A stretch of 64,000 bases of DNA from a virus: the IMG/VR virus record IMGVR_UViG_3300027751_000015, positions 1,813 to 65,812 of that record; one strand, written 5' to 3'. A program made the translations under genes and the position numbers. Numbering within the stretch: the stretch's first letter is position 1; every line of letters starts with the position of its first letter. Below the pieces are notes generated by a model. It worked only from the letters and a program-made list of their open reading frames with translations. It was not told where the DNA came from and made no database searches. Shown piece by piece: positions 652 through 27,004 of this stretch.

Positions 652-842
652 TGTTACCAGATGAAATGGAAGCCGAAAAGAACCGCAAGATAATTGTATC
701 ACAGTCAAATACAATCGAGATTCTTCAACAGAACGTGAGAGAGTTACAAGAACAATTGAATGCTGCGCATAAGCGTATTACTCAATTGACTCCTGAAGAA
801 ACTGAATTTATTGTCCGCAATCATAAAGGATTTGAAGGGTGA
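651..842 (+). CDS. Hypothetical coiled-coil protein
   Basis: Stop/start-coupled to both neighbours; heptad-rich. Confidence 0.6.
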   Translation: MLPDEMEAEKNRKIIVSQSNTIEILQQNVRELQEQLNAAHKRITQLTPEETEFIVRNHKGFEG

Positions 843-1612
843 GAATTATAGCAGGACCTTGTCAACATGAGTCGTTAGCTGAGTCAGCAGATATTGCACG
901 AGAGTGTAAACGAGTGTGCGATAAGTACGGCTTTGAGTATTATTTCAAAGCAAGCTTCGATAAAGCAAACCGCTCAAGTATGCAAGGCAAACGTGGCACG
1001 GGCCTAGAAGCAACACTTACTGACTTTCTTGCAATAAAAACAGAGTTAGGTATAAAGACACTTACTGATGTGCACGACCACGTACAAGTTAGGCGCATTG
1101 AACGACAGTTTAAAGATGCTGTTGATGTCTATCAGATACCTGCATTTTTGTGCAGGCAGACTGATTTAATCCAAGCAGCCTGTGCCACAGACAAGATAGT
1201 AAATATAAAAAAAGGTCAGTTCATGGCCCCTTGGGATATGAAAGGAGTGATAAGTAAGACTGAAGGCGCTAAAGACGTTTGGATAACTGAGCGAGGAACT
1301 AGTTTTGGCTATAACACTCTTGTCGTTGACTATACTGGGCTTATGTATATGCTCGACAATTTTAAACATGATATTGTTTTCGATTGTACGCACTCTGCCC
1401 AAAAACCCGGAGGACAGGGTAATAGTTCAGGCGGTAATAGGGATTACGTGCCTGGGCTGGCTCGTAGCGGGGCTGCTCTTGGGATTAAATCTTTTTTCTT
1501 GGAAGTCCATCCTGAACCTGATCTAGCACCAAGCGATGGTCCTAATATGTTAAAACTAGAAGATTTTGAAAGGACCGTAGATGACATCCACCGCTATTCT
1601 TATACCGGCTAG
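839..1612 (+). CDS. kdsA: KDO8P synthase (3-deoxy-8-phosphooctulonate synthase)
   Basis: IIAGPC, KASFDKANRSS, QIPAFLCRQTDL, NIKKGQF, ERGTSFGY, FDCTHS and EVHPEP...SDGPN motifs. Confidence 0.95.
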   Translation: MRIIAGPCQHESLAESADIARECKRVCDKYGFEYYFKASFDKANRSSMQGKRGTGLEATLTDFLAIKTELGIKTLTDVHDHVQVRRIERQFKDAVDVYQIPAFLCRQTDLIQAACATDKIVNIKKGQFMAPWDMKGVISKTEGAKDVWITERGTSFGYNTLVVDYTGLMYMLDNFKHDIVFDCTHSAQKPGGQGNSSGGNRDYVPGLARSGAALGIKSFFLEVHPEPDLAPSDGPNMLKLEDFERTVDDIHRYSYTG

Positions 1613-2249
1613 ATACGGCAGCACACGTTTTCCTGGTAAGCCACTAACACTTTTAGATGGTGTTCCTATGGTTAAACGAGTATATGATAAGTGTGTAGCA
1701 ACTGGCTACGACACATATGTACTAACAGACGATATGTCTATTGCGCATCTATTTAATGATAATGATTGTAGGATAGATAATACTGATTACCAAAATGGAA
1801 CTGAAAGATGTGCTGGCGCAATAAATCTAATTCGTAAGTATGACCAGTATATTAATGTTCAAGGTGATATGCCTGATGTGACAGAGGAAATGATCGAAAA
1901 GACGATTTGGCATTTAAAAAACTATCCTGTTACTACTATGTGTGCTATGATGCCAGAGGAACAACAGAATGATCCTAATACAGTTAAACTAGTAAGAGCT
2001 GCAGATAAGTGTTTATGGTTTGGTAGAGGCATGACTGGGTATGGTGATTGGCACTTGGGAATTTATGGATACAAGAGGAATGCGTTAGAAATGTATCCTG
2101 GTTTGACAGGCACACGTGAAGAGCGTATTGAAGAACTAGAACAACTCCGCTGGTTAAAAAATGGATGGGATATCGGTGTATTTCCATGTGAGTTTAACGG
2201 AGTAGAAATCAACACACCAGAAGATGCAAAGAAGTGGAATGAAAAATGA
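1581..2249 (+). CDS. kdsB: CMP-KDO synthetase (KDO cytidylyltransferase)
   Basis: IPARYGSTRFPGKPL, NGTERC, INVQGD, HLGIYGY and E-LEQLRWL motifs; adjacent to kdsA. Confidence 0.92.
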   Translation: MTSTAILIPARYGSTRFPGKPLTLLDGVPMVKRVYDKCVATGYDTYVLTDDMSIAHLFNDNDCRIDNTDYQNGTERCAGAINLIRKYDQYINVQGDMPDVTEEMIEKTIWHLKNYPVTTMCAMMPEEQQNDPNTVKLVRAADKCLWFGRGMTGYGDWHLGIYGYKRNALEMYPGLTGTREERIEELEQLRWLKNGWDIGVFPCEFNGVEINTPEDAKKWNEK

Positions 2250-2614
2250 AAGCTGGAAAAGTATGGGGTACGACAGAACTGATTGAAGCAAATGGCGCTT
2301 TAGAGTTTCACCGTATTGAAATGTTTGAAGGCGGTGTATGCTCGAAGCATTTGCACCGCTACAAGTGGAATGGGTTCTATGTAGAGTCAGGCAGAATGCT
2401 TATTCGTACATGGCAACGCGACTACGATTTAGTTGATGTTACTATTCTAGAAGAAGGCGATTATCATAAAGTTAAACCTGGTCTTTATCATCAATTTGAG
2501 TGTGTTGAAGATGGTATAGCATATGAACTATATTGGGCCGAGTTTAATCATAACGATATTGAACGAGAAAGTGTTGGATTTCACCAAGATGAGATTGAGC
2601 ATGATGGTACTTGA
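2246..2614 (+). CDS. Cupin-domain protein (sugar isomerase-like)
   Basis: GKVWG N-terminus, CSKHLH...NGFYVESG and HQF cupin motifs. Confidence 0.75.
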   Translation: MKAGKVWGTTELIEANGALEFHRIEMFEGGVCSKHLHRYKWNGFYVESGRMLIRTWQRDYDLVDVTILEEGDYHKVKPGLYHQFECVEDGIAYELYWAEFNHNDIERESVGFHQDEIEHDGT

Positions 2615-2777
2615 TAAGCTGTTTTTAGATGTAAATAGAGTAGAAGTTATTGATAACAATGGTCGCTCATACACTAAAAACCGAGTAGGTGAGGTGAAAG
2701 TACAGCTTCAAGACGATATGAGAACACTAAAATTGTTTGTTCAGTTTGAAGAAGATGAGGAAATATCAATTGACTAA
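2601..2777 (+). CDS. Hypothetical protein
   Basis: ATG at 2601 overlapping the upstream gene end; fills the operon gap. Confidence 0.55.
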   Translation: MMVLDKLFLDVNRVEVIDNNGRSYTKNRVGEVKVQLQDDMRTLKLFVQFEEDEEISID

Positions 2778-2810
2778 TTGGCAAGCAACATGGAAGGTCT
2801 TAAAAGAGCT

Positions 2811-3248
2811 ATGGCTATAGGAATAACATTTAGCACTTTTGATTTGTTACACGCAGGTCATATCGCTATGCTAAGAGAAGCAAAAAATCAATGTGATTAT
2901 CTAATCTGTGGTTTACAAGTAAATCCTGCCGCGGAAAGATCTGAAAAAAACACACCAGTTCAAACACTAGTAGAAAGATGGATGCAACTACAAGCTGTAA
3001 AATATGTAAATGAAATTATACCCTATGAGACCGAAACAGACATAGAAGATATTTTAAAAATGTTTGATATAGATGTTAGAATTATAGGTCAAGAATATAA
3101 AGACGGAAAATTTACTGGAAGAGCTACTTGCTCTGCCCGAGGAATAGAAATTTATTTTAATAAAAGAGACCATAGATTCTCCACTAGCGATTTACGCGAT
3201 AGAGTGTATGGAGAAGAACTTAAAAAAGACATTGGAGGTCTTACATGA
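2811..3248 (+). CDS. Glycerol-3-phosphate cytidylyltransferase-like (TagD family)
   Basis: FSTFDLLHAGH (HxGH), ER...LQAVKYV and C-terminal R...STS motif. Start could instead be ATG 2790. Confidence 0.85.
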   Translation: MAIGITFSTFDLLHAGHIAMLREAKNQCDYLICGLQVNPAAERSEKNTPVQTLVERWMQLQAVKYVNEIIPYETETDIEDILKMFDIDVRIIGQEYKDGKFTGRATCSARGIEIYFNKRDHRFSTSDLRDRVYGEELKKDIGGLT

Positions 3249-4093
3249 AAATAACTATAGTTGGCTATGGTTTTGTGGGTAGAGCTGTAGAGTATGGATT
3301 TAGAACTCCTAAAGTAAGAATGCAAATTGTTGATCCTAAATACGGTAAAACCTGCTATAACAGTTTAAAGGACGTTAATCTAGAAGAAAATATAACGTTT
3401 GTTTGTGTACCAACTCCTATGAATAAAGACGGTTCTATAGATTCCACCATTCTGGTAGATACAGTTAAAGAGCTAAAAGAACGAATGTCCGGAATAATTG
3501 TTATCAAATCTACGGTAACTCCTGATATAATTAAAAAACTCGTAGTAGGTTCGGGCGGTACTAGAATCGTATATAACCCAGAGTTTTTAACAGAAAAGAA
3601 TGCTATAGATGATTTCATAAATCCTGATAAGCATATCTTTGGCGGAAACGACGGATTTATCGACAACCTAGAATTCTACTATAAAGAATATAGCCTTTGT
3701 AGACCTTGTCCAGTACATCGAATGTCTGCGGTAGACGCTAGTTTTGTAAAATATGGAATTAACTCTTTCTTAGCTATGAAAGTTCTGTTTTTTAATCAGC
3801 TATATGATGTAGTAGAAAATAACGAAGCAGCTTATAATAAGATAGTGAATGCTATAACATCGGATAGTAGAATAGGTAGATCTCATTCTGCAGTTCCTGG
3901 GCTTGATAATAAGCGAGGATACGGAGGAGCTTGCTTTCCAAAGGATACAAGCGCGTTATTTAATTTAGATAAAGGGTTTACATTACTAGGAGAATGTGTT
4001 AGAATTAATAATGAATACAGATCTCAATATGAATTAGACCAAAGGGAAATAGAACAACATGTCGATTATGGACAAACTGAAGAAAAACAGTAA
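3245..4093 (+). CDS. UDP-glucose/GDP-mannose 6-dehydrogenase family protein (short phage form)
   Basis: IVGYGFVG Rossmann motif, FVCVPTP, IKSTV, YNPEFL, K...NSFLA and GYGGACFPKD. Confidence 0.9.
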   Translation: MKITIVGYGFVGRAVEYGFRTPKVRMQIVDPKYGKTCYNSLKDVNLEENITFVCVPTPMNKDGSIDSTILVDTVKELKERMSGIIVIKSTVTPDIIKKLVVGSGGTRIVYNPEFLTEKNAIDDFINPDKHIFGGNDGFIDNLEFYYKEYSLCRPCPVHRMSAVDASFVKYGINSFLAMKVLFFNQLYDVVENNEAAYNKIVNAITSDSRIGRSHSAVPGLDNKRGYGGACFPKDTSALFNLDKGFTLLGECVRINNEYRSQYELDQREIEQHVDYGQTEEKQ

Positions 4094-6750: not shown

Positions 6751-6867
6751 ATGGCTGTAATAGAAAAAAATAAAAAGACAAGTATCGGAAGTCGTAATGT
6801 TAAAACGTCTTCTATGAACAAATCAAAGAAAAGAAGTTTTAAAAAGTACAGAGGTCAAGGTAAGTAA
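6751..6867 (+). CDS. Small basic protein (38 aa) missed by the ORF track
   Basis: AAAGGA SD, ATG 6751, MAVIEKNKKTSIGSRNVKTSSMNKSKKRSFKKYRGQGK; TAATG stop/start overlap with thyX. Confidence 0.8.
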   Translation: MAVIEKNKKTSIGSRNVKTSSMNKSKKRSFKKYRGQGK

Positions 6868-7553
6868 TGAAAACTCGTCTCCTATCATATACTCAACCAG
6901 TAAGACATGTTCACTCAGGTGATCTTGGTATTATGGGTTTAGATAACATTCAAGATTTGATTGCGTATTGCGCTCGAGTATCAAATCCAAATAATCAAAG
7001 TAATACAAAAACTACAGCAAAACTTCTTAATTATCTTATTGAGCATAAGCATTGGTCTCCGTTTGAAATGGCTTCTGTTACCATGGAAATTGAAACAACA
7101 AGAGATATCGCTAGACAGTTTCTACGTCACCGATCATTTTCGTTTCAAGAGTTTTCTCAGCGGTATGCTGACATCCGTGATCTTAATGATAATTTTGTAA
7201 TTCGTGATGCTCGAATGCAAGATCCTAAAAATCGTCAAAACTCTGTCGTAACAGATGATGCCGATCTACAAGAACGTTGGGCTGAGATGCAAGCCGATGT
7301 GATCGCCTGCTCAAAGGCGGCATACAGCTGGGCACTAGCAAACGGTATTGCGAAAGAGCAAGCCCGTGCAGTTTTACCAGAAGGAAATACTGTCTCTCGG
7401 CTCTACGTAAATGGTACTATTAGGTCATGGATTCACTATATTGATCTAAGATCCTCAAATGGTACACAACAAGAGCACATGGACCTGGCAAAAGAAATAG
7501 CGAACGCCATAAGTATAATATATCCTAGTATCATAGACTTTATAAAGGAGTAA
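6867..7553 (+). CDS. thyX: FAD-dependent thymidylate synthase
   Basis: HWSPFE, RHRSFSFQEFSQRY signature, KEQARAVLP and RSWIHY..LR. Confidence 0.97.
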   Translation: MKTRLLSYTQPVRHVHSGDLGIMGLDNIQDLIAYCARVSNPNNQSNTKTTAKLLNYLIEHKHWSPFEMASVTMEIETTRDIARQFLRHRSFSFQEFSQRYADIRDLNDNFVIRDARMQDPKNRQNSVVTDDADLQERWAEMQADVIACSKAAYSWALANGIAKEQARAVLPEGNTVSRLYVNGTIRSWIHYIDLRSSNGTQQEHMDLAKEIANAISIIYPSIIDFIKE

Positions 7554-7844: not shown

Positions 7845-8267
7845 ATGGAGAATAAAATGAGTGATTTTGCTAATGACATGTACATGATGCATAACAAATT
7901 CGGCGTACGTGAGTGGTTTGAAGCCAATAAAGAAAATAAAGATCTTATGCAGAAATATCTCATGTTTCGTATGCTTATGATCGGTGAAGAATACCAAGAG
8001 ACATTGTCTGCTATTAATAATTCTGATGCAGAGGAAGTCGTTGATGGTCTAATTGATATGTGCGTATTTGCTATCGGCACTCTTGATATTATGGGTGTTG
8101 ATGCTAATAAAGCATGGGATGCTATATACCAAGCTAATATGGCAAAAGAGCCAGGCGTAAAGCCTGGTCGCCCTAATCGTTTTGGATTGCCCGATTTACT
8201 AAAGCCAAGTGGTTGGCAAGGGCCATCACACGAAGGCAATCATGGCGATCTGCCGAGTATCGTCTAA
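7845..8267 (+). CDS. MazG-like nucleoside triphosphate pyrophosphohydrolase
   Basis: EEYQE...EEVVDGLID acidic helical motif and ANMAK. Confidence 0.8.
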   Translation: MENKMSDFANDMYMMHNKFGVREWFEANKENKDLMQKYLMFRMLMIGEEYQETLSAINNSDAEEVVDGLIDMCVFAIGTLDIMGVDANKAWDAIYQANMAKEPGVKPGRPNRFGLPDLLKPSGWQGPSHEGNHGDLPSIV

Positions 8268-8749
8268 TGAAAAATGAAGGTGAAAAACTTTGGAAAAAGG
8301 TGAAGAAAATGGATCTAGGAAACCCGATGATAACAGCCCTTGTTGGGCTGGTCATTTTTTATATTGGACTTAAGACATTCTCAGGTGGAATGAAATCTAT
8401 GGGGAATATGGAACACCTTAACTGGTTTCTAGGTAGTCCGATCTATATGTTTTTTGGTGGAATTATCATGACATTGCTATGGCAATCATCTTCACTATCT
8501 ACTACTGCTATTATTGCATTAGTTGCTTCTGGTGCTTTACCGCTGCCTGCAGCTATTGCATGCGTTCTTGGTGCTAATATTGGTACGACAGGTACAATAT
8601 GGCTGGCTGGTTTATTTGTCTCTGATGGAATGCCTAAAGGTGATACGCTACGAATTGCAATGGCACATACTGGAATGAACCTACTTATGGCTCTTATGCT
8701 ACTACCTTTTGTTGGACGAATAGCGCAGTATTTAGCTAGATTTGGATAA
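8267..8749 (+). CDS. Na+/phosphate cotransporter-family membrane protein (single repeat)
   Basis: WQSSSLST and GANIGTT signature motifs; hydrophobic; ATG 8267 overlaps upstream TAA. Confidence 0.8.
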   Translation: MKNEGEKLWKKVKKMDLGNPMITALVGLVIFYIGLKTFSGGMKSMGNMEHLNWFLGSPIYMFFGGIIMTLLWQSSSLSTTAIIALVASGALPLPAAIACVLGANIGTTGTIWLAGLFVSDGMPKGDTLRIAMAHTGMNLLMALMLLPFVGRIAQYLARFG

Positions 8750-9503: not shown

Positions 9504-9925
9504 TGACTCACTTTAAAGCTAAGGTCGATAAAGCTTTTATTATTCAGCGTGACGAAAAGGTCAATAAAGATAATCGACCAAACCCCTATTTTAGATGGGA
9601 TTCTGAATTTGTAGAATTCCATCAAGCAAAGGTTGATCAATTTCAGACTTTATATGATGGCTATGAATATGATACATATCATCAGATACTTGGAGCCATT
9701 GATTATAAAATGTACTCTAAGTCTGGTGTTCATGTATCTGAGTATATTCAAAAACAAATTAAAGCTGGTAAAATCGATCAGCTTGGAATTTGGATGTGGT
9801 CGAGGCCCTGGGGTGGTCCGCTCGAAGAAAATCAAGTAGTAGAATATACAGTCATCGATTATGTTGACGCAAAAGAAGCATTAAAACACATAGATGAAAA
9901 TAATAGATTTACATATCCTCTATAA
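9503..9925 (+). CDS. Hypothetical protein
   Basis: TAATG coupling at 9503. Confidence 0.6.
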   Translation: MTHFKAKVDKAFIIQRDEKVNKDNRPNPYFRWDSEFVEFHQAKVDQFQTLYDGYEYDTYHQILGAIDYKMYSKSGVHVSEYIQKQIKAGKIDQLGIWMWSRPWGGPLEENQVVEYTVIDYVDAKEALKHIDENNRFTYPL

Positions 9926-9936
9926 TATGGTAGAAT
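9908..9936 (+). promoter_or_regulatory. Promoter TTTACA-N17-TAGAAT for the DNA-modification cluster
   Basis: 17-nt spacer; T4-early-like -35; immediately upstream of ATG 9943. Confidence 0.6.
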
Positions 9937-9942: not shown

Positions 9943-10251
9943 ATGAAATACGATAATGGCAAACCCCCGATTCACCTTGTACCAACTCTCGCTATTGAAT
10001 CTGCAGCGAGAGTACTAGAATTTGGTGCAAAGAAATACGGTGAAAACAACTGGCGTGATGACATAAACACGACTGAGTGGAGTAGATCTTATTCTTCTCT
10101 TCAGCGTCACTTAATGGCATATTGGAATAAAGAAGATACTGATCCTGAGTCTGGTCTTCTCCATCTCGATCACGCTTTAACGCAACTTATGATTCTTCGT
10201 GTAGCATACGAAGAAGGTAAAGATATGGATGATAGATATGAAAGCAAATAG
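9943..10251 (+). CDS. DUF5664-like dNTP diphosphohydrolase
   Basis: KYDNGKP...GAKKYGENNWR...RHL...DPESGLLHLDHA pattern. Confidence 0.8.
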   Translation: MKYDNGKPPIHLVPTLAIESAARVLEFGAKKYGENNWRDDINTTEWSRSYSSLQRHLMAYWNKEDTDPESGLLHLDHALTQLMILRVAYEEGKDMDDRYESK

Positions 10252-10942
10252 CGTAAACGACGTACGGCAATTCTTTATTAATGAACTTAAAGATGAAGCA
10301 TTCACTATAGATAAAACTGGCGCTAAAACTATTGAATTAATCGGTGCATCTTTTATTGCAACCGAAAAGTCTATATTTGGTGTACCCAACCAGGATTACA
10401 TTAACCAAGAACTGCTATGGTACCATAACATGTCGACTAATATCAATGACATTTTTGGTGAACATCGTGATCCTCCAGCAGCATGGAAGTATGCTTCCAA
10501 TTCACATGGTGAGATTAACTCTAACTATGGCAAACTTATCTTCAGTGATACTTACAATAAACAGTACGATAATGTATTAACAGAACTGCTAGAGAATCCT
10601 GATGGAAGACGTGCTACCATGGTTTATAATCGCCCTAGCATTTGGCTTGATTATAAAGATAACGGCAAAAATGATTTCATCTGTACCAACGCTGTCACTT
10701 ATTATATTCGTGATGGTCTGCTTCATGCTGTAGTCCAAATGCGTTCTAATGACGTAGTCTTTGGTTACAAAAATGATTACGCATGGCAAATGCATGTAGT
10801 ACAAAAACTATGCGACGATTATAACTTCCGACGTTTTGAACGCACTGCAAGCGGCAGTGGCGAGGCTATTGAACCAGCCTTGATGACGTGGCAAGTACAA
10901 AATTTGCACGTTTATGAACGGCATTTTGATATAGTAGTTTAA
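10238..10942 (+). CDS. 42: dCMP hydroxymethylase (T4 gp42-like)
   Basis: DKTG.KTIE.IGASF, GEINSNYG, NPD.RR, DF.CTN (catalytic Cys), MRSNDVVFGYKNDYAWQ (Asp at the specificity position, as in T4 gp42 rather than the Asn of ThyA) and LHVY.RHF. Confidence 0.92.
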   Translation: MKANSVNDVRQFFINELKDEAFTIDKTGAKTIELIGASFIATEKSIFGVPNQDYINQELLWYHNMSTNINDIFGEHRDPPAAWKYASNSHGEINSNYGKLIFSDTYNKQYDNVLTELLENPDGRRATMVYNRPSIWLDYKDNGKNDFICTNAVTYYIRDGLLHAVVQMRSNDVVFGYKNDYAWQMHVVQKLCDDYNFRRFERTASGSGEAIEPALMTWQVQNLHVYERHFDIVV

Positions 10943-10985
10943 AACTGCTATATCTACTACACAACAACAAAACAAGGAACTTAAT

Positions 10986-12377
10986 ATGGAACTTCATAAT
11001 GAAGACCTCGGCCCTGTAACCGAGGATAAAAAAACATGGGGTTGGTTTGAAATTTTCAATGTATGGTCTAACGATATTCAATCACTCTTTGGATATACTT
11101 TAGCAGCATCACTATTCTTATCATATGGCCTTTCTGGCTGGTCTGTCTTTTCTGCTATTTTGGTAGCAGGACTTTTTGTTATGGTGCTGGTAAACCTAAT
11201 GGGTAAACCTTCTGTACAGCATGGCATTCCATTTCCAGTTATGGCTCGAGCGAGTATGGGTGTAAAGGGCGCTAACTTTCCGGCTGTATTACGAGCTGTT
11301 GTAGCCATCTTCTGGTATGGCGCGCAAACTTATTTTGCATCAACAGCTTTGTCTCTCTTAATTAAATCTCTTTTAGGAATTGAGCCATCGAGTATGTGGC
11401 TTGGTATGACTGGCATTGATTGGGTATCGTTCTTAATTGTGTGGGGTTTTCAGATCTTCTTGTTTATGAAAGGCATTGATACTATCGCTAAGTTCTTAAA
11501 TTTTGCGGGAGTGTTTGTATATGCTGTTATGATTGTTCTTGCTCTTCTTATTTGGAATGCGGCCGGATCAGGACTCATGACAGAAGTAGGTACTATCTTT
11601 CAAGGCGTAGGTGATTATAGTGGAACAGCACTCAGTGCGTGGTTCGCAGTAGTTGGTACAATGATTGCATACTTTGCGGCTGTTGTAATTAACTACGGTG
11701 ATTTCTCTAGATTTGTAAAATCACAAAAGGAAATGAGAAAGGGCAATCTACTTGGCTTGCCATTAAACATTGCTTTCTTTTCGTTAATCGCTTTAGTAGT
11801 TACTGCTGGTACTATTGTAGTCTTCGGTGAACCAATGACAAATCCTACTGATATTGTGGCAGCTGTCGGATCTTTACCACTTACTATTGTAGCTGCTATC
11901 GCGTTCTTCTTTGCGACTGTTGGCATTAATATGGTGGCTAACTTTATTCCACCTGCTTATGATCTTGCCAATCTAGCACCAGCTAAGATCGACTTTAGAC
12001 TTGGTGGTTTGATTACATCGGCATTTGCTCTCGTAATTGGTGGTCTTTGGGTTTCAGTAGTAAGTCAAATGGGTATCTTCAATTTTGTAAATACCTTTGG
12101 CGCTGTACTCGCTCCGATCTATGGTATTATGATGGTCGATCACTATATGATCAAGAAAGAAGCACTAGATATTGATGAACTATTTAATGCATCTGAAGAT
12201 GGTGAATACTATTATGACAATGGTTGGAACAAGAAAGCACTCGCAGCTTGGGCATTGCCTGCAGCGTTCTCTCTTGGAACGGTATGGTTGCCAGTTCTTG
12301 GCTTCTTATCAGGATTCGGATGGGTAATTGGTGCCGCACTCGGTGGAATTATTTATTTTACAATCATGAAAAAATAG
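10986..12377 (+). CDS. NCS1-family nucleobase:cation symporter (uracil/cytosine/allantoin permease-like)
   Basis: 463 aa, about 12 TM. NEDLGP...TWG, G.PFPVMARASMG..GAN, FWYGAQT, DFSRF, NMVANF and PIYGIMMVDHY motifs. Confidence 0.92.
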   Translation: MELHNEDLGPVTEDKKTWGWFEIFNVWSNDIQSLFGYTLAASLFLSYGLSGWSVFSAILVAGLFVMVLVNLMGKPSVQHGIPFPVMARASMGVKGANFPAVLRAVVAIFWYGAQTYFASTALSLLIKSLLGIEPSSMWLGMTGIDWVSFLIVWGFQIFLFMKGIDTIAKFLNFAGVFVYAVMIVLALLIWNAAGSGLMTEVGTIFQGVGDYSGTALSAWFAVVGTMIAYFAAVVINYGDFSRFVKSQKEMRKGNLLGLPLNIAFFSLIALVVTAGTIVVFGEPMTNPTDIVAAVGSLPLTIVAAIAFFFATVGINMVANFIPPAYDLANLAPAKIDFRLGGLITSAFALVIGGLWVSVVSQMGIFNFVNTFGAVLAPIYGIMMVDHYMIKKEALDIDELFNASEDGEYYYDNGWNKKALAAWALPAAFSLGTVWLPVLGFLSGFGWVIGAALGGIIYFTIMKK

Positions 12378-12385
12378 TGTATAAT
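12357..12385 (+). promoter_or_regulatory. Promoter TTTACA-N17-TATAAT upstream of dCMP deaminase
   Basis: 17-nt spacer, overlapping the end of the NCS1 gene. Confidence 0.65.
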
Positions 12386-12388
12386 AAA

Positions 12389-12412
12389 CGAGTAGGGCGA
12401 AAGTCCTACTCG
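12389..12412. other. 10-bp GNRA-capped hairpin
   Basis: CGAGTAGGGC-GAAA-GTCCTACTCG; lies at the predicted transcript 5' end, no + strand U-tract. Confidence 0.55.
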
Positions 12413-12433
12413 ACACAAAAAAAGGTTTATATT

Positions 12434-12874
12434 ATGGTTAATAAATGGGATAAGCGATATCTTGATCTAGCATCTGGAGTCGCTAATTGGTCGAAAGATC
12501 CTTCATCTAAAATCGGTGCGATTGCTGTAGGATCAAAAGGACAAGTGCTTGCTCAAGGCTACAACGGATTTCCAAGAGGAATTAGTGATAGTTTTGATCG
12601 ATATGCAAACAAAGATGTTAAGTATAAGTTTGTAGTTCATGCTGAAATGAACTGCATATACAATGCTACATATAATGGTGTATCACTTGACGGTGCAACT
12701 CTCTATGTTCATGGATTACCTGTCTGCTCTGATTGCGCAAAGGGTATTATTCAGGTTGGAATTAAGAGAGTTGTTATGCCGCTAGCAGAATACCCACAAC
12801 GATGGATCGAGTCGTTTGCATATTCATCGGAACTCTTTAGTGAAGCTGGTGTTGATTATGAGTTTATAGAATGA
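12434..12874 (+). CDS. cd: dCMP deaminase
   Basis: WSKDPS.KIGA, GYNGFPRG, HAEMN and PVCSDCAK zinc motifs; AAAGG SD before ATG 12434. Confidence 0.93.
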   Translation: MVNKWDKRYLDLASGVANWSKDPSSKIGAIAVGSKGQVLAQGYNGFPRGISDSFDRYANKDVKYKFVVHAEMNCIYNATYNGVSLDGATLYVHGLPVCSDCAKGIIQVGIKRVVMPLAEYPQRWIESFAYSSELFSEAGVDYEFIE

Positions 12875-13806
12875 TAGTCGGAACCTTTAGTAAAATACCT
12901 AAGAAGACATCAAGCCACAGTTATGGCTATGCCAGAACTTGGTCAGAAAATCTTAATGTACCCATTGACCATACGAATGGAAAGCACAAAGATGTTTATC
13001 TTTTGCCTGGTGCTAATTTTGGTGGTACTATTAATCTTATGGGTGGGTTTAACGAAGTTATTAAGGTTTGGATCGATAACTTGCTCGCTTCAGAAACAAT
13101 AACAGTACTGGACGGCTCTCCAGTTGACTACGGTGCGCAGTTAAAGAAGCGAAAAGACGTAACTGACAAAGATTGGTGCGATGCAATAACTGAGAAGCTT
13201 TCTGAAGCTAAGCCTCTTGTAGGCAGTGATTTACCACACGAATGGTTAGCAATCGGTGACAGTCACGTGTGCGCATATGCACCGAAGAATAGTAGTGTAG
13301 TCAAGCAAGATGGTACTACATTGTTTGGCCAAATCAATGAAGATTTTGCATACATCAGGTCTCATATCAAACCGCATCATAAAGGTGTTACCATATCTCT
13401 TGGCAATATTGATGTACGTCACCATTTATGCAGAGTAGAAACTAGCATCTATAAAATGGTCGAAGCATATAGCGATTTCGGAAAGAGTCTTGGCATTGAA
13501 GTAGAATACGCGGTGCCGTGGCCAATTGAATTCGAAGGCCGTAAACTTCCTCAGACCGGGTATTACAAGAAGCAACCATTTTGGGGCTCAAGAGATGAAA
13601 GAATGAAAGCAGCTTGGGATATGGAAGGCTGTATGAAAATATATGAAATGAAATTAGTAAAACCACCTCAAGCTTGGTATGATATGAATGAAGAAAAATA
13701 TGCTATAGATAAAATGGAAAGACCCCAATCAGTACATCTTAATCCCATGTTTTATCGCCGTATGAATTGGGGTGAGAGCGAAAACACACTAGAAAGTTTT
13801 ATGTAA
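12871..13806 (+). CDS. Hypothetical protein with SGNH/GDSL-hydrolase-like C-terminal region
   Basis: AIGDSH and SLGNIDVRHH blocks; late HLNP. Confidence 0.55.
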   Translation: MIVGTFSKIPKKTSSHSYGYARTWSENLNVPIDHTNGKHKDVYLLPGANFGGTINLMGGFNEVIKVWIDNLLASETITVLDGSPVDYGAQLKKRKDVTDKDWCDAITEKLSEAKPLVGSDLPHEWLAIGDSHVCAYAPKNSSVVKQDGTTLFGQINEDFAYIRSHIKPHHKGVTISLGNIDVRHHLCRVETSIYKMVEAYSDFGKSLGIEVEYAVPWPIEFEGRKLPQTGYYKKQPFWGSRDERMKAAWDMEGCMKIYEMKLVKPPQAWYDMNEEKYAIDKMERPQSVHLNPMFYRRMNWGESENTLESFM

Positions 13807-14876
13807 TGGAATTAGAAAGACGACCAAATTACGATTGTTATGTGGATTATTTCTGGCCTCGTTCAAAATGGCTTGAAGAGAATTGCCTAATCGGCGATGC
13901 TGATTATCTTGGACCTGAAGCTGACGAACACGTGAACGACGAGTTAATGCAAAATATCCCTGCTTACAACTGTGTGTCTAGAACGTATGAAGGATTCAAT
14001 AACGTAAACCAAGATTTAAATCACGGCACTAATCAAGTAGTATTTAAGAAAAGGCCGAAAGAGGTACAAGAACGAGTTCAGAAATATGTGACAAATAAAT
14101 GGACTCTTCGAGAATATGTGTTTGCTTATTATACGCATCGTAGTACTGGATCAGGATTTTATGCTGGCAAACCATGGCACGGATATCATCATAGCATAGT
14201 TAGTCATTTCGGAATGTATGAAACTGCAGATGAGATGGCGAATCTTATGAAGCAGTGGAAAAAAGCTGGTAAAAAGATGTTTTCTACTATTGGTAACCAG
14301 AACCCTACTCCGAAGAAAGGTATGAATCTTCCTGAACATATAACGAGTTTTGGTTTAGAACTAATGGGCGAACTGACAGAACATCTTAAAGAAAACTATA
14401 ATGCAGGTAATCCACCGCTTGAACAAAAGAGTTTAACTGATAGACTTAACCAGAAAAATATAGACAACGGGATTCGTCGTTGGAACTTTCCATATGCACA
14501 AGCCATTGCAGACATTGCTACGTATCATCCACAATATGTAGATCCTAATAGTAGTTTATATTGTGGTAATAATGCTAGACAAGCAATCGAACAAATGTTT
14601 CGAAAGCCAAAAGGGATGAGTCAAGTAGAATATCACGATCGAGCACTAGCAGATCTTACAGAAAACCTTGGTACAAATGCTGTGGCACACGAAGATACCT
14701 TATGCATCTATATCAGGTTTTTAAATAATCTCGATCGTTCTGGCCGAGGTCTTAAAAATGCTTCAGGTTATTATATGATGGATAAAAATGATAAGCCTAT
14801 GTATCCTGATATTTGGCGCCCTGAAGCGCTTGAAGCAAAACAACAAAAAGCAACTTTAGCGGAGTTTCTAGTATGA
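13806..14876 (+). CDS. Putative DNA base-hypermodification transferase (aGPT-PPlase/amino acid:DNA transferase-like, HhH-glycosylase fold)
   Basis: Blocks DELMQ...YNCVSR.YEG, FPYAQAIADI, YCGNNARQAI and EDTLCIYIRF parallel the D..LQ..FCNV.RE, GPGA..GL and E..LCE..KY blocks of that family as I recall them. Genomic context fits. Confidence 0.5.
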   Translation: MELERRPNYDCYVDYFWPRSKWLEENCLIGDADYLGPEADEHVNDELMQNIPAYNCVSRTYEGFNNVNQDLNHGTNQVVFKKRPKEVQERVQKYVTNKWTLREYVFAYYTHRSTGSGFYAGKPWHGYHHSIVSHFGMYETADEMANLMKQWKKAGKKMFSTIGNQNPTPKKGMNLPEHITSFGLELMGELTEHLKENYNAGNPPLEQKSLTDRLNQKNIDNGIRRWNFPYAQAIADIATYHPQYVDPNSSLYCGNNARQAIEQMFRKPKGMSQVEYHDRALADLTENLGTNAVAHEDTLCIYIRFLNNLDRSGRGLKNASGYYMMDKNDKPMYPDIWRPEALEAKQQKATLAEFLV

Positions 14877-15010
14877 CAGAAAAATCATTTGCTCAGATAG
14901 TGGCAGAATATAGACTGCATAGAAGATACATTCTACAAGCATTAAAGCAGTTTAAATAAATTTATTTTACAAGTTGTTGTTTTTAAACGATTTCGATCGG
15001 CGCTTTTTTG

Positions 15011-15039
15011 TGTACATTGCTTTTAATATGCTGTAGGAT
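15011..15039 (+). promoter_or_regulatory. Early promoter TGTACA-N17-TAGGAT
   Basis: Same cassette as 8807 and 52888 (CGGCGC-T-run-GTGTACATT). Confidence 0.75.
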
Positions 15040-22423: not shown

Positions 22424-23380
22424 ATGGCACACGAAGTAGAAATGATTAACGGTCAAGCTCAACTAGCATACGTTGGTGATGTACCTTGGCACGGTCTTGG
22501 TGTTGAAGTTCGGAACGATATGACACCTGAGCAGATTATGGTAAAAGCTGGCCTTGATTGGACAGTTGAAAAAGAAGAAGTACAAACAGTATCAGGTGTA
22601 AAAATTCCTGGTAAAAAAGCTTTGGTTCGTTCTTCTGACGGTTCAGTTTTAGATATGGTCGGTGACGACTGGAATCCTGTACAAAATACACAAGCTTTCG
22701 AATTCTTCTCAGATTTCGTAATGGCAGGTGATATGGAAATGAATGTGGCAGGATCTTTAAAGGATGGAAAAAATGTATTCGCTCTCGCAAAAGTCAAAGA
22801 GTCTTTCACTATTCTCGGCGAAGACCAAGTTGACTCCTATCTTTTGTTTAGCAATCCTCACCAATATGGTAAAGCTGTTGATATTCGCTTTACTCCCATT
22901 CGTGTTGTATGCAATAACACGCTCACATTTTCTTTAAATTCAAAGTCTAAAAACTTTGTAAAAGTTGGCCATCGTTCAGTCTTCGATGCTGATATGGTTA
23001 AAGAGCAAATGGGACTTGCTTCTGAAAAGTTTGCACAGTATAAAGAGATGGCAGAATTCTTGTCAACTCGTCGTTATAACGCAGAATCGCTGATTCAATA
23101 CTATAACGAAGTATTCCCACATCGTGAGCAGCGTACTGTTTCAGCGTTCGATGATTTATCACGTACAGCTCAGTTAGCAGCTTCCAACATCGAAACTCAG
23201 CCTGGTGCAGAGTTTGGTCAAGGAACTTGGTGGCAGGCATTTAACTCTGTTACATATATGACTGACCACATTCAAGGTCGTAGTGCAGAGAGTCGTTTGA
23301 ATAACCAATGGTTTGGTTACAATCAAGGACGAAAAATTAATGCTGCTAACAAAGCAGTAGAATTTGCGACAGCAGCATGA
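22424..23380 (+). CDS. DUF932-family phage/plasmid protein
   Basis: MAHEVE..AYVG..PWHGLG, AGLDW, QN.QAFEFF, AGSLK.G, FTPIRVVCNNTL and GTWWQAFN motifs. Confidence 0.88.
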   Translation: MAHEVEMINGQAQLAYVGDVPWHGLGVEVRNDMTPEQIMVKAGLDWTVEKEEVQTVSGVKIPGKKALVRSSDGSVLDMVGDDWNPVQNTQAFEFFSDFVMAGDMEMNVAGSLKDGKNVFALAKVKESFTILGEDQVDSYLLFSNPHQYGKAVDIRFTPIRVVCNNTLTFSLNSKSKNFVKVGHRSVFDADMVKEQMGLASEKFAQYKEMAEFLSTRRYNAESLIQYYNEVFPHREQRTVSAFDDLSRTAQLAASNIETQPGAEFGQGTWWQAFNSVTYMTDHIQGRSAESRLNNQWFGYNQGRKINAANKAVEFATAA

Positions 23381-23559
23381 AAATTATAAATGATAAAAAG
23401 AACCCCTCGTTGTTAGGGGTTCTTGAACCTGCTGATCGCATTGATGAATACGAAAAATGGGTAGATAATCTTAATCAAGATCTAAAAGATTCTGGTTACG
23501 ATCAATATGAGTACAAAGTTGTAAAAAAGAGAGATAAGCTTTACATCAACCGTTTGTAG
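23377..23559 (+). CDS. Hypothetical protein
   Basis: ATGA coupling; followed by a terminator. Confidence 0.55.
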   Translation: MKIINDKKNPSLLGVLEPADRIDEYEKWVDNLNQDLKDSGYDQYEYKVVKKRDKLYINRL

Positions 23560-23568
23560 ACTAAATTT

Positions 23569-23591
23569 AGAGGCTTTTGCCTCTTTTTTTT
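23569..23591 (+). terminator. Rho-independent terminator
   Basis: AGAGGC-TTTT-GCCTCT followed by a T-run. Confidence 0.8.
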
Positions 23592-23593
23592 AT

Positions 23594-23601
23594 TATAAAT
23601 A
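23594..23601 (+). promoter_or_regulatory. T4-type late promoter TATAAATA
   Basis: Exact consensus heading the putative internal-protein operon. Confidence 0.85.
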
Positions 23602-23626
23602 CACTATATACTTTAGAGGTTCTAAC

Positions 23627-24622: not shown

Positions 24623-25323
24623 TGGCACGCAATCAATACTTAGAACTCATAACACTACAAATAGCAGCCGGCCAAGTACTTAAAACTTCTTCAATAGATA
24701 AGTTTGGATACAACAGTGCGCTTGGTAATACTTACGAAACTATTTGGAGTGGCAACAACCGTTACACTTATATAACTACTCCAGGAACAGCTATTGTAAC
24801 AAGTGGAGATTCAGATGATAATGGTGGAACAGTTCTTATCCAAGGATTAGATGCAGAATATAATGAAATTTCAGAAACTCTTACTGTAGGTGGGCCTGCA
24901 GGTTCTGCTGTATTTCACAGAGTGCATAGAGCATCGCTTGCGACAGCAAACACTGGTGATACAAACCAAGGGGCCATCACGGTAACTGTTGATTCAAAGT
25001 CAGTGGCAATCATACCAATTGGTTATGGTCAGACACTGATGTGTTTATACACTATCCCGAGAAGAAAAAGAGGTTATCTATTTCAACTAGATATTGGTTG
25101 TTCAAAGGATCAGGAGCTAGAAGCTAAAATAGTTGAAAGAAATGGTACAACTAATGTTTGGCAAACAAAGGCGTTTATTACAACCCGTGGTGGGTTTTTA
25201 GAAAAGAACTTTAATATTCCTATTGAGATAGATGAGAAACACGACGTCGAAGTTAGAGCAAAGGCAAGTGCCGGATCGGCTGCAGTTAGCGCAGGATTTG
25301 AACTTGTATTGGTGGACAAATGA
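24622..25323 (+). CDS. Late hypothetical protein (beta-rich, possibly structural)
   Basis: KFGYN...ETIW; Gly/Thr-rich; coupled in late operon. Confidence 0.6.
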   Translation: MARNQYLELITLQIAAGQVLKTSSIDKFGYNSALGNTYETIWSGNNRYTYITTPGTAIVTSGDSDDNGGTVLIQGLDAEYNEISETLTVGGPAGSAVFHRVHRASLATANTGDTNQGAITVTVDSKSVAIIPIGYGQTLMCLYTIPRRKRGYLFQLDIGCSKDQELEAKIVERNGTTNVWQTKAFITTRGGFLEKNFNIPIEIDEKHDVEVRAKASAGSAAVSAGFELVLVDK

Positions 25324-26546: not shown

Positions 26547-26547
26547 A

Positions 26548-26997: not shown

Positions 26998-27004
26998 CAT
27001 CTAT

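What the first reader, a model, noticed from the sequence alone, without database searches (positions are those of the whole stretch)
9943..14876. Hydroxymethylcytosine pathway coupled to a putative non-glucosyl hypermodification module
Seen: a close T4 gp42-type dCMP hydroxymethylase (catalytic DFICTN; cytosine-specific Asp in MRSNDVVFGYKND), although thyX already supplies dTMP. It clusters with a DUF5664-like diphosphohydrolase, dCMP deaminase, an SGNH-like ORF (12871) and ORF 13806. Motif blocks in 13806 (YNCVSR, YCGNNA, EDTLCIYIRF) resemble the HhH-fold aGPT-PPlase/amino acid:DNA transferases. Known: T4 glucosylates hmC with agt/bgt, whereas characterised amino acid:DNA transferases act on pyrophosphorylated hmU. 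No agt/bgt and no obvious hmU kinase are in this window. Inference: a different chemical group may be attached to hmC, giving an uncharacterised cytosine hypermodification in a marine phage. The family assignment of 13806 rests on remembered motifs only.
Basis: partly seen in the sequence, partly recalled or inferred. Interest (0 to 1): 0.85.

Follow-up and report, generated by a model that had tools for sequence, protein, structure and literature searches.

The report
hmC pathway plus novel modifier pair
A marine T4-like phage makes hydroxymethylcytosine as T4 does, but where T4 has sugar-adding enzymes it carries a conserved, sometimes fused pair of uncharacterised proteins that probably attach a different chemical group to that base in DNA.

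Summary
Window 9943-14876 encodes a MazZ-like NTP diphosphohydrolase, a T4 gp42-type dCMP hydroxymethylase, an NCS1 permease, a dCMP deaminase, ORF311 (12871-13806) and ORF356 (13806-14876). The hydroxymethylase keeps the catalytic Cys, the cytosine-specific Asp and Asp169, so it is a 5hm synthase and not a 5-hydroxy synthase.

ORF356 folds as an HhH-type DNA-glycosylase-like helical protein. Its best solved match is the PaMx11 amino-acid:DNA transferase (Z 8.9). Its best predicted matches are 5-hmdU DNA kinase helical domains (TM 0.61). It keeps their E-x-x-L-C motif, but no Pfam model reaches threshold.

ORF311 has an SGNH fold (Z 10.9) with invariant GDSH, GNID and SVH motifs.

What is new here:
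- The two proteins are fused in several phages.
- An ORF311-family gene lies within the fetched flanks in 25 of 28 ORF356 clusters.
- They travel with gp42-type synthases.
- ORF311 also occurs in cultured Aeromonas T4-like phages that have gene 42 but no agt or bgt.

Best reading: a two-part post-replicative hmC-DNA modifying enzyme, built like 5-HMUDK with an SGNH acyl-transfer module in place of the kinase. The chemistry is inferred, not shown.

I rate this a new variant of a known kind.

The parts
9908..9936 (+). Promoter-like site (TTTACA-17-TAGAAT) ahead of the diphosphohydrolase/gp42 genes
   Evidence: Consensus scan, 10 of 12 matches. A consensus match only.
9943..10251 (+). MazZ/DUF5664-like all-alpha NTP diphosphohydrolase. 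Inferred dCTP-clearing enzyme that supplies dCMP, as T4 gp56 does.
   Evidence: PF18909 E 1.5e-29; phrog_801 E 4e-33. It overlaps gp42 by 23 nt. diPhyd-gp42 adjacency recurs in relatives. Substrate is inferred.
10229..10942 (+). gp42-type dCMP hydroxymethylase (5hm-dCMP synthase)
   Evidence: E 1.5e-64 to solved T4 gp42. It keeps the catalytic Cys in DFICTN, an acidic residue at the E. coli L143 position, Asp at the D169 position and Asp at the N177 position.
10986..12377 (+). NCS1 nucleobase/cation permease, an accessory insert inside the module
   Evidence: PF02133 E 5.5e-79. It is absent from most relatives. Where present it is 95-99% identical while flanking genes are 58-79% identical.
12357..12385 (+). 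Promoter-like site (TTTACA-17-TATAAT) ahead of the deaminase-ORF311-ORF356 run
   Evidence: Consensus scan, 11 of 12 matches. A consensus match only.
12434..12874 (+). dCMP deaminase
   Evidence: PF00383 E 2.8e-19; phrog_174 E 9e-43. Its stop overlaps the ORF311 start by 4 nt.
12871..13806 (+). ORF311: small N-terminal domain plus an SGNH-fold domain (residues about 120-302). Proposed catalytic partner.
   Evidence: phrog_13881 E 1e-45. AF2 model pLDDT 88. All top 50 solved matches are SGNH/GDSL proteins, Z up to 10.9. G129-D130-S131-H132, G178-N179-I180-D181 and S287-V288-H289 are invariant in 31 homologues. It is fused to ORF356-like domains in P0159, P0174 and P0192.
13806..14876 (+). ORF356: HhH-derived helical protein of the 5-HMUDK-helical / amino-acid:DNA transferase superfamily. 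Proposed hm-pyrimidine-DNA recognition module with an E296-x3-C300 motif.
   Evidence: AF2 model pLDDT 85. The best of 48,161 solved chains is 8z2m (PaMx11 gp46), Z 8.9, followed by HhH glycosylases. TM 0.61 over 262 residues to an Atlas cluster that is 100% HMUDK_hel. The second AFDB match is a 5-hmdU DNA kinase helical domain protein, probability 0.99. The E-x-x-L-C motif is shared. The start overlaps the ORF311 stop by 1 nt.
6867..7553 (+). ThyX (context: dTMP supply)
   Evidence: PF02511 E 4.8e-42.
7845..8267 (+). MazG/PRA-PH-type NTP pyrophosphohydrolase (context)
   Evidence: PF01503 E 5e-9; phrog_671 E 6e-22. It is conserved near the module in relatives.
839..4093 (+). Sugar-nucleotide genes (context): KdsA-like, KdsB-like, cupin, TagD-like cytidylyltransferase and a short UDP-sugar dehydrogenase
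   Evidence: PF00793, PF02348, PF07883, PF01467 and PF03721/PF00984. In many relatives the gp42-deaminase-ORF311-ORF356 cassette sits between the cytidylyltransferase and the dehydrogenase.

Best explanation
The region is a T4-style pre-replicative 5-hydroxymethylcytosine pathway joined to a new two-protein post-replicative modifier.

Step 1 (inferred from family and position): the MazZ-like and MazG-like pyrophosphohydrolases convert dCTP to dCMP.

Step 2 (well supported by sequence): the gp42-type enzyme makes 5hm-dCMP. After phosphorylation this is polymerised, so that hmC replaces C. dCMP deaminase and ThyX keep dTMP supplied.

Step 3 (inferred): ORF356 and ORF311 act together on hmC in DNA.
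- ORF356 is a divergent member of the HhH-derived superfamily that holds the 5-hmdU DNA kinase helical domain and the amino-acid:DNA transferases. It binds DNA and flips out the hm-pyrimidine, keeping the Glu-x3-Cys pocket motif.
- ORF311 is an SGNH-fold enzyme with its Ser and His retained. It does the chemistry on the 5-CH2OH group.
- The pair is built like 5-HMUDK (catalytic domain plus helical domain, split or fused), with an acyl-transfer/esterase module in place of the P-loop kinase.

My best guess at the chemistry is O-acylation of hmC. The acyl group would be either the final mark or a leaving group that the conserved Cys then helps replace with another nucleophile. The product takes the place of T4 glucosylation in protecting the DNA.
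For: gp42 assignment:
- E 1.5e-64 to the solved T4 enzyme, with the Cys, D169 and D177 equivalents kept.
- The D169N rule for 5-hydroxy synthases comes from PMC13326640.

ORF356 fold:
- The top solved match is PaMx11 gp46, Z 8.9 over 210 residues. The next twelve are the HhH-related queuine-salvage enzyme DUF2419 (ranks 2-3) and HhH DNA glycosylases.
- TM 0.61 over 262 residues to a bona fide 5-HMUDK cluster.
- An AFDB HMUDK-helical protein matches at probability 0.99.
- Protein-language-model neighbours carry HMUDK_hel, ADDT and aGPT-Pplase3.

ORF356 motif:
- E296-D-T-L-C300 matches E243-T-I-L-C247 of PaMx11 gp46 and EHTLCE of the M6 and PaMx11 HMUDK_hel proteins.
- Cys247 is the catalytic residue (PMC11472151). 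Mutating the Cys or the Glu abolishes activity (PMC8989533).
- hhalign puts three motifs in register with HMUDK_hel.

ORF311:
- SGNH fold, Z 10.9, with invariant GDSH, GNID and SVH motifs.

Functional coupling:
- Fusion proteins P0159, P0174 and P0192 have an N-terminus like ORF311 (hhalign E 1e-35 to 1e-43) and a C-terminus like ORF356 (E 4e-36 to 7e-28).
- The two genes overlap by 1 nt.
- An ORF311-family gene lies within the flanks of ORF356 in 25 of 28 clusters from 96 loci.
- The Aeromonas phage 44RR fusion has a C-terminal domain with a sub-threshold HMUDK_hel hit, E 0.0036.

Link to hmC:
- Every thymidylate-synthase homologue found with the pair has Asp at both diagnostic positions.
- The complete genomes of Aeromonas phages 44RR and 25 and a 141-kb record with terminal repeats carry gp42 plus ORF311 but no agt or bgt. 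T4 gives E 1e-99 and 1e-261 for these.
- ORF311 homologues in cultured phages are confined to 38 Aeromonas and 2 Stenotrophomonas records; no other phage record matched.
Against: - No Pfam model reaches threshold for either ORF.
- Profile-profile comparison with ADDT finds nothing. With HMUDK_hel it gives only E 0.021 at 2% probability.
- Z 8.9 lies in the range the tool warns can arise for helical proteins.
- I could not superpose coordinates, so the equivalence of C300 with Cys247 rests on motif and position.
- The Cys motif is shared by the kinase helical domains, so it does not say which chemistry is done.
- SGNH proteins are mostly hydrolases. No cytoplasmic acyl donor or donor-making gene is evident, and the usual Asp three residues before the His is missing.
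- One clade (L100-L116) has ORF356 with neither partner nor gp42 within 8 kb.
- Sugar-nucleotide genes recur next to the module.
- The genome is about 35% complete, so a glycosyltransferase or kinase elsewhere cannot be excluded.
- No nucleoside data exist for any carrier.
Confidence: 0.5

Rival explanations
1. The pair is an unconventional glycosylation system. The neighbouring sugar-nucleotide genes make a donor or nucleophile. A sugar is joined to the hmC methylene by transferase-like substitution, as serine is in ViI. The SGNH protein trims or activates it (for example by sugar O-acetyl handling).
For: In relatives the cassette sits between a TagD-like cytidylyltransferase and a UDP-sugar dehydrogenase, with PMM and a cupin nearby. 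The window has KdsA, KdsB, cupin, cytidylyltransferase and dehydrogenase genes 6 kb upstream. Aeromonas phage 25 has a UDP-galactopyranose mutase two genes upstream of its ORF311 homologue. Phage 44RR has a sodium:solute symporter next to its fusion. Many SGNH enzymes act on sugar O-acetyl groups.
Against: The sugar genes differ between relatives while the pair is conserved. In the window and its 90%-identical relatives the cassette has moved away from them. The P0153 and P0139 clades show no sugar genes in the scanned neighbours. No glycosyltransferase fold was found in either ORF.
Confidence: 0.17
2. The two proteins act on free nucleotides or small molecules, not on DNA. ORF356 would be a QNG1-like nucleotide or nucleoside hydrolase and ORF311 an esterase. 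The clustering would reflect general nucleotide salvage, together with the NCS1 permease.
For: The second and third best solved matches of ORF356 are queuine-salvage DUF2419 enzymes, which act on a nucleotide (Z 7.7 and 7.3). The module lies among nucleotide-metabolism genes and next to a nucleobase permease.
Against: The best solved match and the best named predicted matches are DNA-acting enzymes of hm-pyrimidine hypermodification. The permease is absent from most relatives. The strict association with hmC-type synthases and the fusion with the SGNH domain are not explained.
Confidence: 0.12
3. ORF356 is a DNA glycosylase-like enzyme used to discriminate or degrade cytosine-containing host DNA, or for repair. 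ORF311 has an unrelated accessory role.
For: It has the HhH-GPD glycosylase fold (AGOG, OGG, NTHL1, AlkA and EndoIII at Z 5.9-7.3). T4-type phages need enzymes that tell C DNA from hmC DNA (established T4 biology).
Against: The conserved residues are the Glu-x3-Cys of the transferase and kinase branch, not a glycosylase Lys/Asp pair. The fusion and tight linkage with the SGNH protein are not explained.
Confidence: 0.1
4. Nothing is added. The phage DNA carries plain hmC, and the two ORFs are conserved genes of unrelated function that happen to be syntenic.
For: No chemical data exist. Neither ORF reaches a curated family threshold.
Against: There are gene fusions and translational coupling. 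Co-occurrence holds across clades that share under 30% identity. Homologues were found only in Aeromonas and Stenotrophomonas phage records, and the two Aeromonas genomes checked lack agt and bgt.
Confidence: 0.08

Closest known systems
5-hmdU DNA kinase (5-HMUDK; Pfam HMUDK_hel PF18723 plus HMUDK_HMUD1 PF18748) of phages PhiW-14, SP10, ViI and M6
   Same: The helical domain has the same fold (TM 0.61 over 262 residues; AFDB probability 0.99). The E-x-T-L-C motif and two upstream motifs align in register. The architecture is the same: a catalytic module plus a helical module, found split or fused. Both are linked to a pre-replicative hydroxymethyl-pyrimidine synthase.
   Different: There is no P-loop kinase; the partner is an SGNH-fold protein. 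The linked synthase is cytosine-specific, not uracil-specific. The Pfam model does not reach threshold. The product is unknown.
[quoted passage not shown]
   Same: It is the best solved structural match (Z 8.9). Glu sits four residues before a Cys in the last core helix, matching E243/C247. The fold is HhH glycosylase-like.
   Different: There is no sequence-profile match. No phosphorylating kinase is evident. The known enzymes act on phosphorylated hmU, not hmC (PMC8989533).
T4 hmC pathway (gp56 dCTPase, gp42, gp1, agt/bgt)
   Same: The gp42 homologue has all diagnostic residues. An NTP pyrophosphohydrolase sits next to it. dCMP deaminase is present. The replication genes are T4-like.
   Different: No agt or bgt was found in the record, in four relatives, in a 141-kb record with terminal repeats, or in Aeromonas phages 44RR and 25. 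ThyX replaces ThyA. The pyrophosphohydrolase is MazZ/MazG-type.
RB69/DLP3 5-hydroxycytosine arabinosylation (PMC13326640)
   Same: A thymidylate synthase homologue with the N177D and L143 acidic changes starts the pathway in a T4-like phage. Sugar-nucleotide genes lie nearby.
   Different: Those synthases have Asn at position 169; this one keeps Asp. Those phages use GT-B arabinosyltransferases, and none was found here.
TET/C5-methyltransferase hmC hypermodification cassettes of metaviromes (PMC8256090)
   Same: They are a precedent for hmC in DNA being handed on to P-loop kinase and aG/PT-PPlase-like genes.
   Different: There hmC is made after replication by a methyltransferase plus TET. Here it is made before replication by gp42. 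No SGNH partner is reported there.
SGNH/GDSL esterases and O-acetyltransferases (PatB, OatA C-domain, OafB, NeuA esterase domain)
   Same: The fold matches, and the block I GDS Ser, the block III Asn and the block V His are kept.
   Different: The extra N-terminal domain is specific to this viral family. Asp is not in the usual DxxH position. It pairs with a DNA-base-recognition protein. Pfam hits are only sub-threshold.

Membership tests
T4 gp42-type dCMP hydroxymethylase | Significant similarity over the full length to the solved T4 enzyme | tested here: met
   E 1.5e-64, residues 8-236 against 7-225 of 1b49.
T4 gp42-type dCMP hydroxymethylase | Catalytic Cys (E. coli C146) with an acidic residue at the L143 position | tested here: met
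   DFICTN aligns to T4 DFMCTN. The rule is from PMC13326640.
T4 gp42-type dCMP hydroxymethylase | Asp at the N177 position (cytosine specificity) | tested here: met
   KNDYAWQ aligns to T4 RNDYAWQ. The N-for-D mutant chain 6l18 shows which position this is.
T4 gp42-type dCMP hydroxymethylase | Asp kept at the D169 position (Asn marks 5-hydroxy-dCMP synthases) | tested here: met
   The RSND motif is kept in the window and in all relatives.
T4 gp42-type dCMP hydroxymethylase | Makes 5hm-dCMP from dCMP and methylene-tetrahydrofolate | not testable with these tools
   This needs an enzyme assay or LC-MS.
Amino-acid:DNA transferase (ADDT / aGPT-PPlase2, PF18724) | Pfam model over its cut-off | tested here: not met
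   No match in the record at E up to 10. One of 67 family members hits at E 1e-3, below the cut-off. hhalign against four characterised members finds nothing.
Amino-acid:DNA transferase (ADDT / aGPT-PPlase2, PF18724) | Two-helix-bundle HhH-like fold of PaMx11 gp46 | tested here: met
   8z2m_A is the top of 48,161 chains, Z 8.9, 210 residues, model residues 10-319. The Z is modest.
Amino-acid:DNA transferase (ADDT / aGPT-PPlase2, PF18724) | Catalytic Cys with Glu four residues before it | tested here: inconclusive
   E296/C300 have the same spacing as E243/C247 and sit in the last core helix. No coordinate superposition was possible.
Amino-acid:DNA transferase (ADDT / aGPT-PPlase2, PF18724) | Works downstream of a 5-hm-pyrimidine DNA kinase | tested here: not met
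   No HMUDK_hel match in the record. No P-loop kinase was seen in the module or in relatives' modules. The genome is partial.
5-hmdU DNA kinase helical domain (PF18723) | Pfam model over its cut-off | tested here: not met
   No match in the record. One of 67 members hits at E 0.01. The 44RR fusion C-domain hits at E 0.0036.
5-hmdU DNA kinase helical domain (PF18723) | Fold of the helical domain | tested here: met
   TM 0.61 over 262 residues, rmsd 3.6, to a cluster that is 100% HMUDK_hel plus HMUDK_HMUD1. AFDB probability 0.99.
5-hmdU DNA kinase helical domain (PF18723) | Conserved C-terminal E-x-T-L-C-E motif and the upstream aromatic/Asp and G-x-G motifs | tested here: met
   The Cys is invariant in four kinases. 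hhalign aligns F228, G254 and E296-C300 to the matching blocks.
5-hmdU DNA kinase helical domain (PF18723) | Partnered or fused with a P-loop kinase domain | tested here: not met
   The partner is SGNH-like.
SGNH/GDSL hydrolase superfamily | Alpha/beta/alpha SGNH fold | tested here: met
   All top 50 matches are SGNH proteins, Z 8.2-10.9, model residues 120-302. Foldseek probability 1.0.
SGNH/GDSL hydrolase superfamily | Block I GDS Ser, block II Gly, block III Asn, block V His | tested here: met
   G129-D130-S131, G148, N179 and H289 are invariant in 31 homologues. They are kept in the fusions and in the divergent subtype. Their spatial arrangement was not checked.
SGNH/GDSL hydrolase superfamily | Block V Asp three residues before the His (DxxH) | tested here: not met
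   The motif reads P-Q-S-V-H. The nearest invariant acid is E283.
SGNH/GDSL hydrolase superfamily | Pfam model over its cut-off | tested here: not met
   Only 4 of 31 members hit PF19040, at E 0.026 or worse.
T4 alpha/beta glucosyltransferases | PF11440 or PF09198 match | tested here: not met
   None in the record, in four relatives, in G005 or in Aeromonas phages 44RR and 25. T4 scores E 1e-261 and 1e-99.

The most novel reading that the evidence does not exclude
Abundant marine T4-like phages and cultured Aeromonas T4-like phages carry a kinase-independent route of hydroxymethyl-pyrimidine hypermodification. An SGNH-type enzyme, docked or fused to a 5-HMUDK-like base-flipping domain, O-acylates 5hmC in DNA. 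The conserved Cys then lets that ester be displaced by another nucleophile. The result would be a so far undescribed class of cytosine hypermodification. Its chemical group would vary with the rapidly swapped ORF311 subtype.
Probability: 0.22. Interest if true: 0.88.

Novelty: new variant of a known kind. Interest (0 to 1): 0.72.

Why it matters
All characterised hmC hypermodifications are glycosylations by GT-A or GT-B enzymes. All characterised members of the 5-HMUDK / amino-acid:DNA transferase superfamily act on hmU. This module joins a cytosine-specific hydroxymethylase to a member of that superfamily and gives it a new catalytic partner.

It is not a one-off:
- It occurs in at least 28 sequence clusters of environmental T4-like phages.
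- ORF311, in phage 44RR fused to a weakly HMUDK_hel-like domain, occurs in 40 cultured phage records.
- Those cultured phages make the chemistry directly testable with existing isolates.

A new base modification would bear on phage resistance to restriction and CRISPR. It would also bear on errors and biases in sequencing marine viromes, and on enzyme tools for tagging 5hmC.

Tried and rejected
- Direct Pfam and PHROG scans of ORF356 gave nothing.
- PDB sequence-profile searches of both families gave only noise.
- tblastn of ORF356 against 50,697 phage records gave no match.
- hhalign of the ORF356 family against four characterised amino-acid:DNA transferases gave no signal.
- hhalign of the ORF356 family against the C-terminal domain of the Aeromonas 44RR fusion gave no signal. 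That domain is linked to the superfamily only by a sub-threshold Pfam hit.
- The two genes upstream of the phage 25 homologue are not ORF356-like.
- Foldseek against PDB for ORF356 was not significant, though it pointed to the same fold.
- I first took the 313-aa ORF of locus L005 for the ORF311 homologue. It is not. The 370-aa ORF is.
- Reading the gp42 homologue as a 5-hydroxy-dCMP synthase of the RB69 kind was considered and rejected on the D169 residue.
One scan with a fusion protein found nothing.
- The 194.5-kb relative contig could not be searched whole.
- Residue-level superposition on 8z2m was not possible with the tools.

Full report
**What the window is.** The window is most of a 69.5-kb IMG/VR viral record judged about 35% complete. 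The gene content of the window and of its relatives is that of a T4-like myophage:
- UvsX, gp41 helicase, gp32, RNase H and class II ribonucleotide reductase in the window.
- gp23, gp45, gp44, RegA, UvsW, UvsY and B-family DNA polymerase in relatives.

Homologues come from marine and other aquatic metagenomes (Tara, JGI, ENA).

**Checking the observation.**
- 9943-10251 is a PF18909 diphosphohydrolase domain (E 1.5e-29).
- 10229-10942 matches the solved T4 dCMP hydroxymethylase at E 1.5e-64 over nearly its whole length.
- 12434-12874 is a dCMP deaminase, and ThyX lies at 6867-7553.

A recent paper shows that thymidylate synthase homologues with the cytosine-specific Asp can be either hydroxymethylases or flavin-dependent 5-hydroxy-dCMP synthases. 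The latter carry Asn at E. coli position 169 (PMC13326640). The window's enzyme reads R-S-N-D at that place, as T4 does. It also has the acidic residue three positions before the catalytic Cys. It is therefore a 5hm-dCMP synthase by every sequence test available.

The genes overlap: diphosphohydrolase/gp42 by 23 nt, deaminase/ORF311 by 4 nt and ORF311/ORF356 by 1 nt. Promoter-like sites lie at 9908 and 12357.

**ORF356 (13806-14876).** No curated family matches it.
- It has 15 close homologues and 119 representatives in the 1.8-billion-protein library.
- The AlphaFold model built on the close alignment is confident (pLDDT 85, pTM 0.81) and all-helical.
- An exhaustive structural comparison with 48,161 solved chains puts PaMx11 gp46, the 5-phosphomethyl-dU glycinyltransferase, first (Z 8.9, 210 residues). 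Next come the queuine-salvage DUF2419 enzymes and a run of HhH DNA glycosylases: AGOG, OGG, NTHL1, Mag1, AlkA and endonuclease III. The Z is modest for a helical protein. However, the first thirteen rows are, apart from the HhH-related DUF2419 enzymes at ranks 2-3, HhH DNA glycosylases or their derivative PaMx11 gp46.
- Two independent libraries of predicted structures agree. An ESM Atlas cluster in which every member carries HMUDK_hel and the kinase domain matches at TM 0.61 over 262 residues. The second AFDB hit is a 5-hmdU DNA kinase helical domain protein at probability 0.99.
- Language-model neighbours carry HMUDK_hel, ADDT and aGPT-Pplase3.
E296 is invariant and C300 nearly invariant in 67 diverse members. 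It has the same Glu-x3-Cys spacing as E243/C247 of PaMx11 gp46 and M6 gp51.
- Cys247 is the proposed catalytic nucleophile (PMC11472151). Loss of the Cys or the Glu abolishes activity in M6 gp51 and ViI gp247 (PMC8989533).
- The HMUDK_hel proteins of M6 and PaMx11 read E-H-T-L-C-E, and the Cys is invariant in four kinases.
- hhalign against those four aligns F228, G254 and E296-C300 to the matching blocks, but at only E 0.021. Against the transferases it finds nothing.

My reading is that ORF356 is a divergent member of the HhH-derived superfamily that holds both the kinase helical domain and the amino-acid:DNA transferases. It is somewhat nearer the kinase branch, and it is not a member of either Pfam family as they are now defined.

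**ORF311 (12871-13806).** It matches phrog_13881, a family of unknown function. It has at least 175 homologues.
- The model (pLDDT 88) has a small N-terminal domain. Residues 120-302 match SGNH/GDSL structures in all top 50 rows (Z 8.2-10.9). These include the peptidoglycan and LPS O-acetyltransferases PatB, OatA and OafB.
- The block I Ser (GDSH), a block II Gly, the block III Asn (GNID) and the block V His (SVH) are invariant.
- The usual Asp three residues before the His is absent.

**The two ORFs form a unit.** This is the main new result.
- Metagenomic proteins of 719-790 residues carry an ORF311-like N-terminal half (hhalign E 1e-35 to 1e-43) and an ORF356-like C-terminal half (E 4e-36 to 7e-28).
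- I collected 96 loci holding an ORF356-family gene and grouped them into 28 clusters at 90% identity. An ORF311-family gene lies within the fetched flanks in 25 clusters, usually adjacent. Two of the three exceptions have too little flank to tell.
- A gp42-type synthase lies in the flanks in 16 clusters. In three further records (two clusters) it is elsewhere on the same contig. One fusion locus has a more divergent synthase. Every one of these has Asp at both the 169 and 177 positions.
- The four genes gp42, deaminase, ORF311 and ORF356 move as a cassette. In many relatives the cassette lies between a TagD-like cytidylyltransferase and a UDP-sugar dehydrogenase just before uvsX. In the window and its closest relatives it lies after thyX and MazG.
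- Closely related ORF356 proteins (75-83% identical) are paired with ORF311 proteins that are only 33-44% identical, or recognisable only by profile. That is what one would expect if ORF311 sets a variable chemistry.

**Cultured carriers.** ORF311 homologues occur in 38 Aeromonas and 2 Stenotrophomonas T4-like phage records and in no other record of the collection.
- In phage 44RR2.8t the homologue is the N-terminal half of a 795-residue protein. Its C-terminal part gives a sub-threshold HMUDK_hel hit (E 0.0036) over the motif region.
- Phages 44RR and 25 both have gene 42 with the diagnostic residues.
- Neither genome has agt or bgt, nor does a 141-kb environmental record with terminal repeats. 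T4 scores E 1e-261 and 1e-99 in the same searches.
- The window's record and four partial relatives also lack agt and bgt, and the four relatives lack Glycos_transf_1.

**How it most likely works.**
- Shown by sequence: a complete nucleotide-level route to hm-dCMP.
- Inferred from family and T4 precedent: the MazZ/MazG enzymes clear dCTP, and hm-dCTP is polymerised.
- Inferred from fold, motif, fusion and co-occurrence: ORF356 recognises and flips hmC in DNA, and ORF311 acts on its hydroxymethyl group. The pair mirrors 5-HMUDK with the kinase replaced.
- Guess: the reaction is O-acylation, either final or as a leaving group for Cys-assisted substitution, by analogy with phosphate in the hmU pathways. 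I found no donor-making gene. The literature I could search holds no report of an SGNH protein in a DNA hypermodification pathway.

**Rivals.** Sugar-nucleotide genes recur beside the module in three unrelated settings: the marine clade, a UDP-galactopyranose mutase in phage 25, and a solute symporter in 44RR. A sugar-containing product made by unconventional chemistry is therefore a serious rival. A role on free nucleotides is suggested by the DUF2419 match. A role as a glycosylase that discriminates host DNA is less likely, because neither explains the fusion with the SGNH domain or the conserved Cys. One clade has ORF356 alone, so the helical protein can also work without this partner.

**Verdict.** It is incomplete in missing that the SGNH protein is the partner and that the nearest relatives are the kinase helical domains. 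The chemistry remains unproven.

I file this as a new variant of a known kind, namely hydroxymethyl-pyrimidine hypermodification by the 5-HMUDK / aGPT-PPlase superfamily. It has a new base (cytosine) and a new catalytic partner. It is widespread and can be tested in existing Aeromonas phage isolates.

Noticed in passing
window 10986-12377: The NCS1 permease is 95-99% identical in loci L024, L035, L036 and L053, while the flanking gp42, deaminase, ORF311 and ORF356 are only 58-79% identical. Most relatives lack it. It looks like a recently spreading insert between gp42 and the deaminase.
   Followed up: partly
window 8213-8749: This is a 178-residue ORF with a Na+/Pi cotransporter domain (PF02690, E 2.5e-15). 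It is much shorter than cellular transporters and overlaps the end of the MazG gene. It is 98% identical in L028.
   Followed up: no
window 839-4093: KdsA-like, KdsB-like, cupin, TagD-like cytidylyltransferase and a short (282 aa) UDP-sugar dehydrogenase run into uvsX. In relatives PMM replaces the Kdo genes, and the hmC cassette is inserted between the cytidylyltransferase and the dehydrogenase.
   Followed up: partly
L034, L038, L048, L051, L052; L005:11215-12327; L029-L031: Near-identical ORF356 proteins (75-83%) are paired with at least three very different ORF311 subtypes. These are 33-44% identical, or a 370-aa form found only by profile. This suggests partner swapping.
   Followed up: partly
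L072:9158-10144 and the same place in about 20 loci of that clade: A second, weak ORF356-family paralogue (328 aa, E about 1e-6) lies directly after the main one, and an unknown 314-aa ORF precedes ORF311. This recalls the paralogous aGPT-PPlase pairs of hmU phages.
   Followed up: no
L008:3767-4831 (Aeromonas phage 25); L007:4399-5922 (phage 44RR2.8t): A UDP-galactopyranose mutase (PF03275, E 5e-54) lies two genes upstream of the phage 25 ORF311 homologue. A sodium:solute symporter lies directly upstream of the 44RR fusion gene.
   Followed up: partly
L005:12320-13522; also L029, L030, L060: A C5 cytosine DNA methyltransferase gene follows the ORF311-like gene in phages that also encode a gp42-type hydroxymethylase. 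That is an odd combination if all C is replaced by hmC.
   Followed up: no
L100-L116 (for example L116): One clade of 15 loci has an ORF356-family gene with no ORF311 and no gp42 homologue within 8 kb. None is found on the 49-kb contig either.
   Followed up: partly
window 22424-28474: The ORFs here include DUF932, DUF6267 (E 3e-101), and a 489-aa protein with a cytidylyltransferase-like domain plus DUF5824. All are of unknown role.
   Followed up: no
window 14873-15010: A 28-codon ORF starts inside the ORF356 stop region. A T-rich stretch follows, just before the TGTACA-type promoter at 15011.
   Followed up: no
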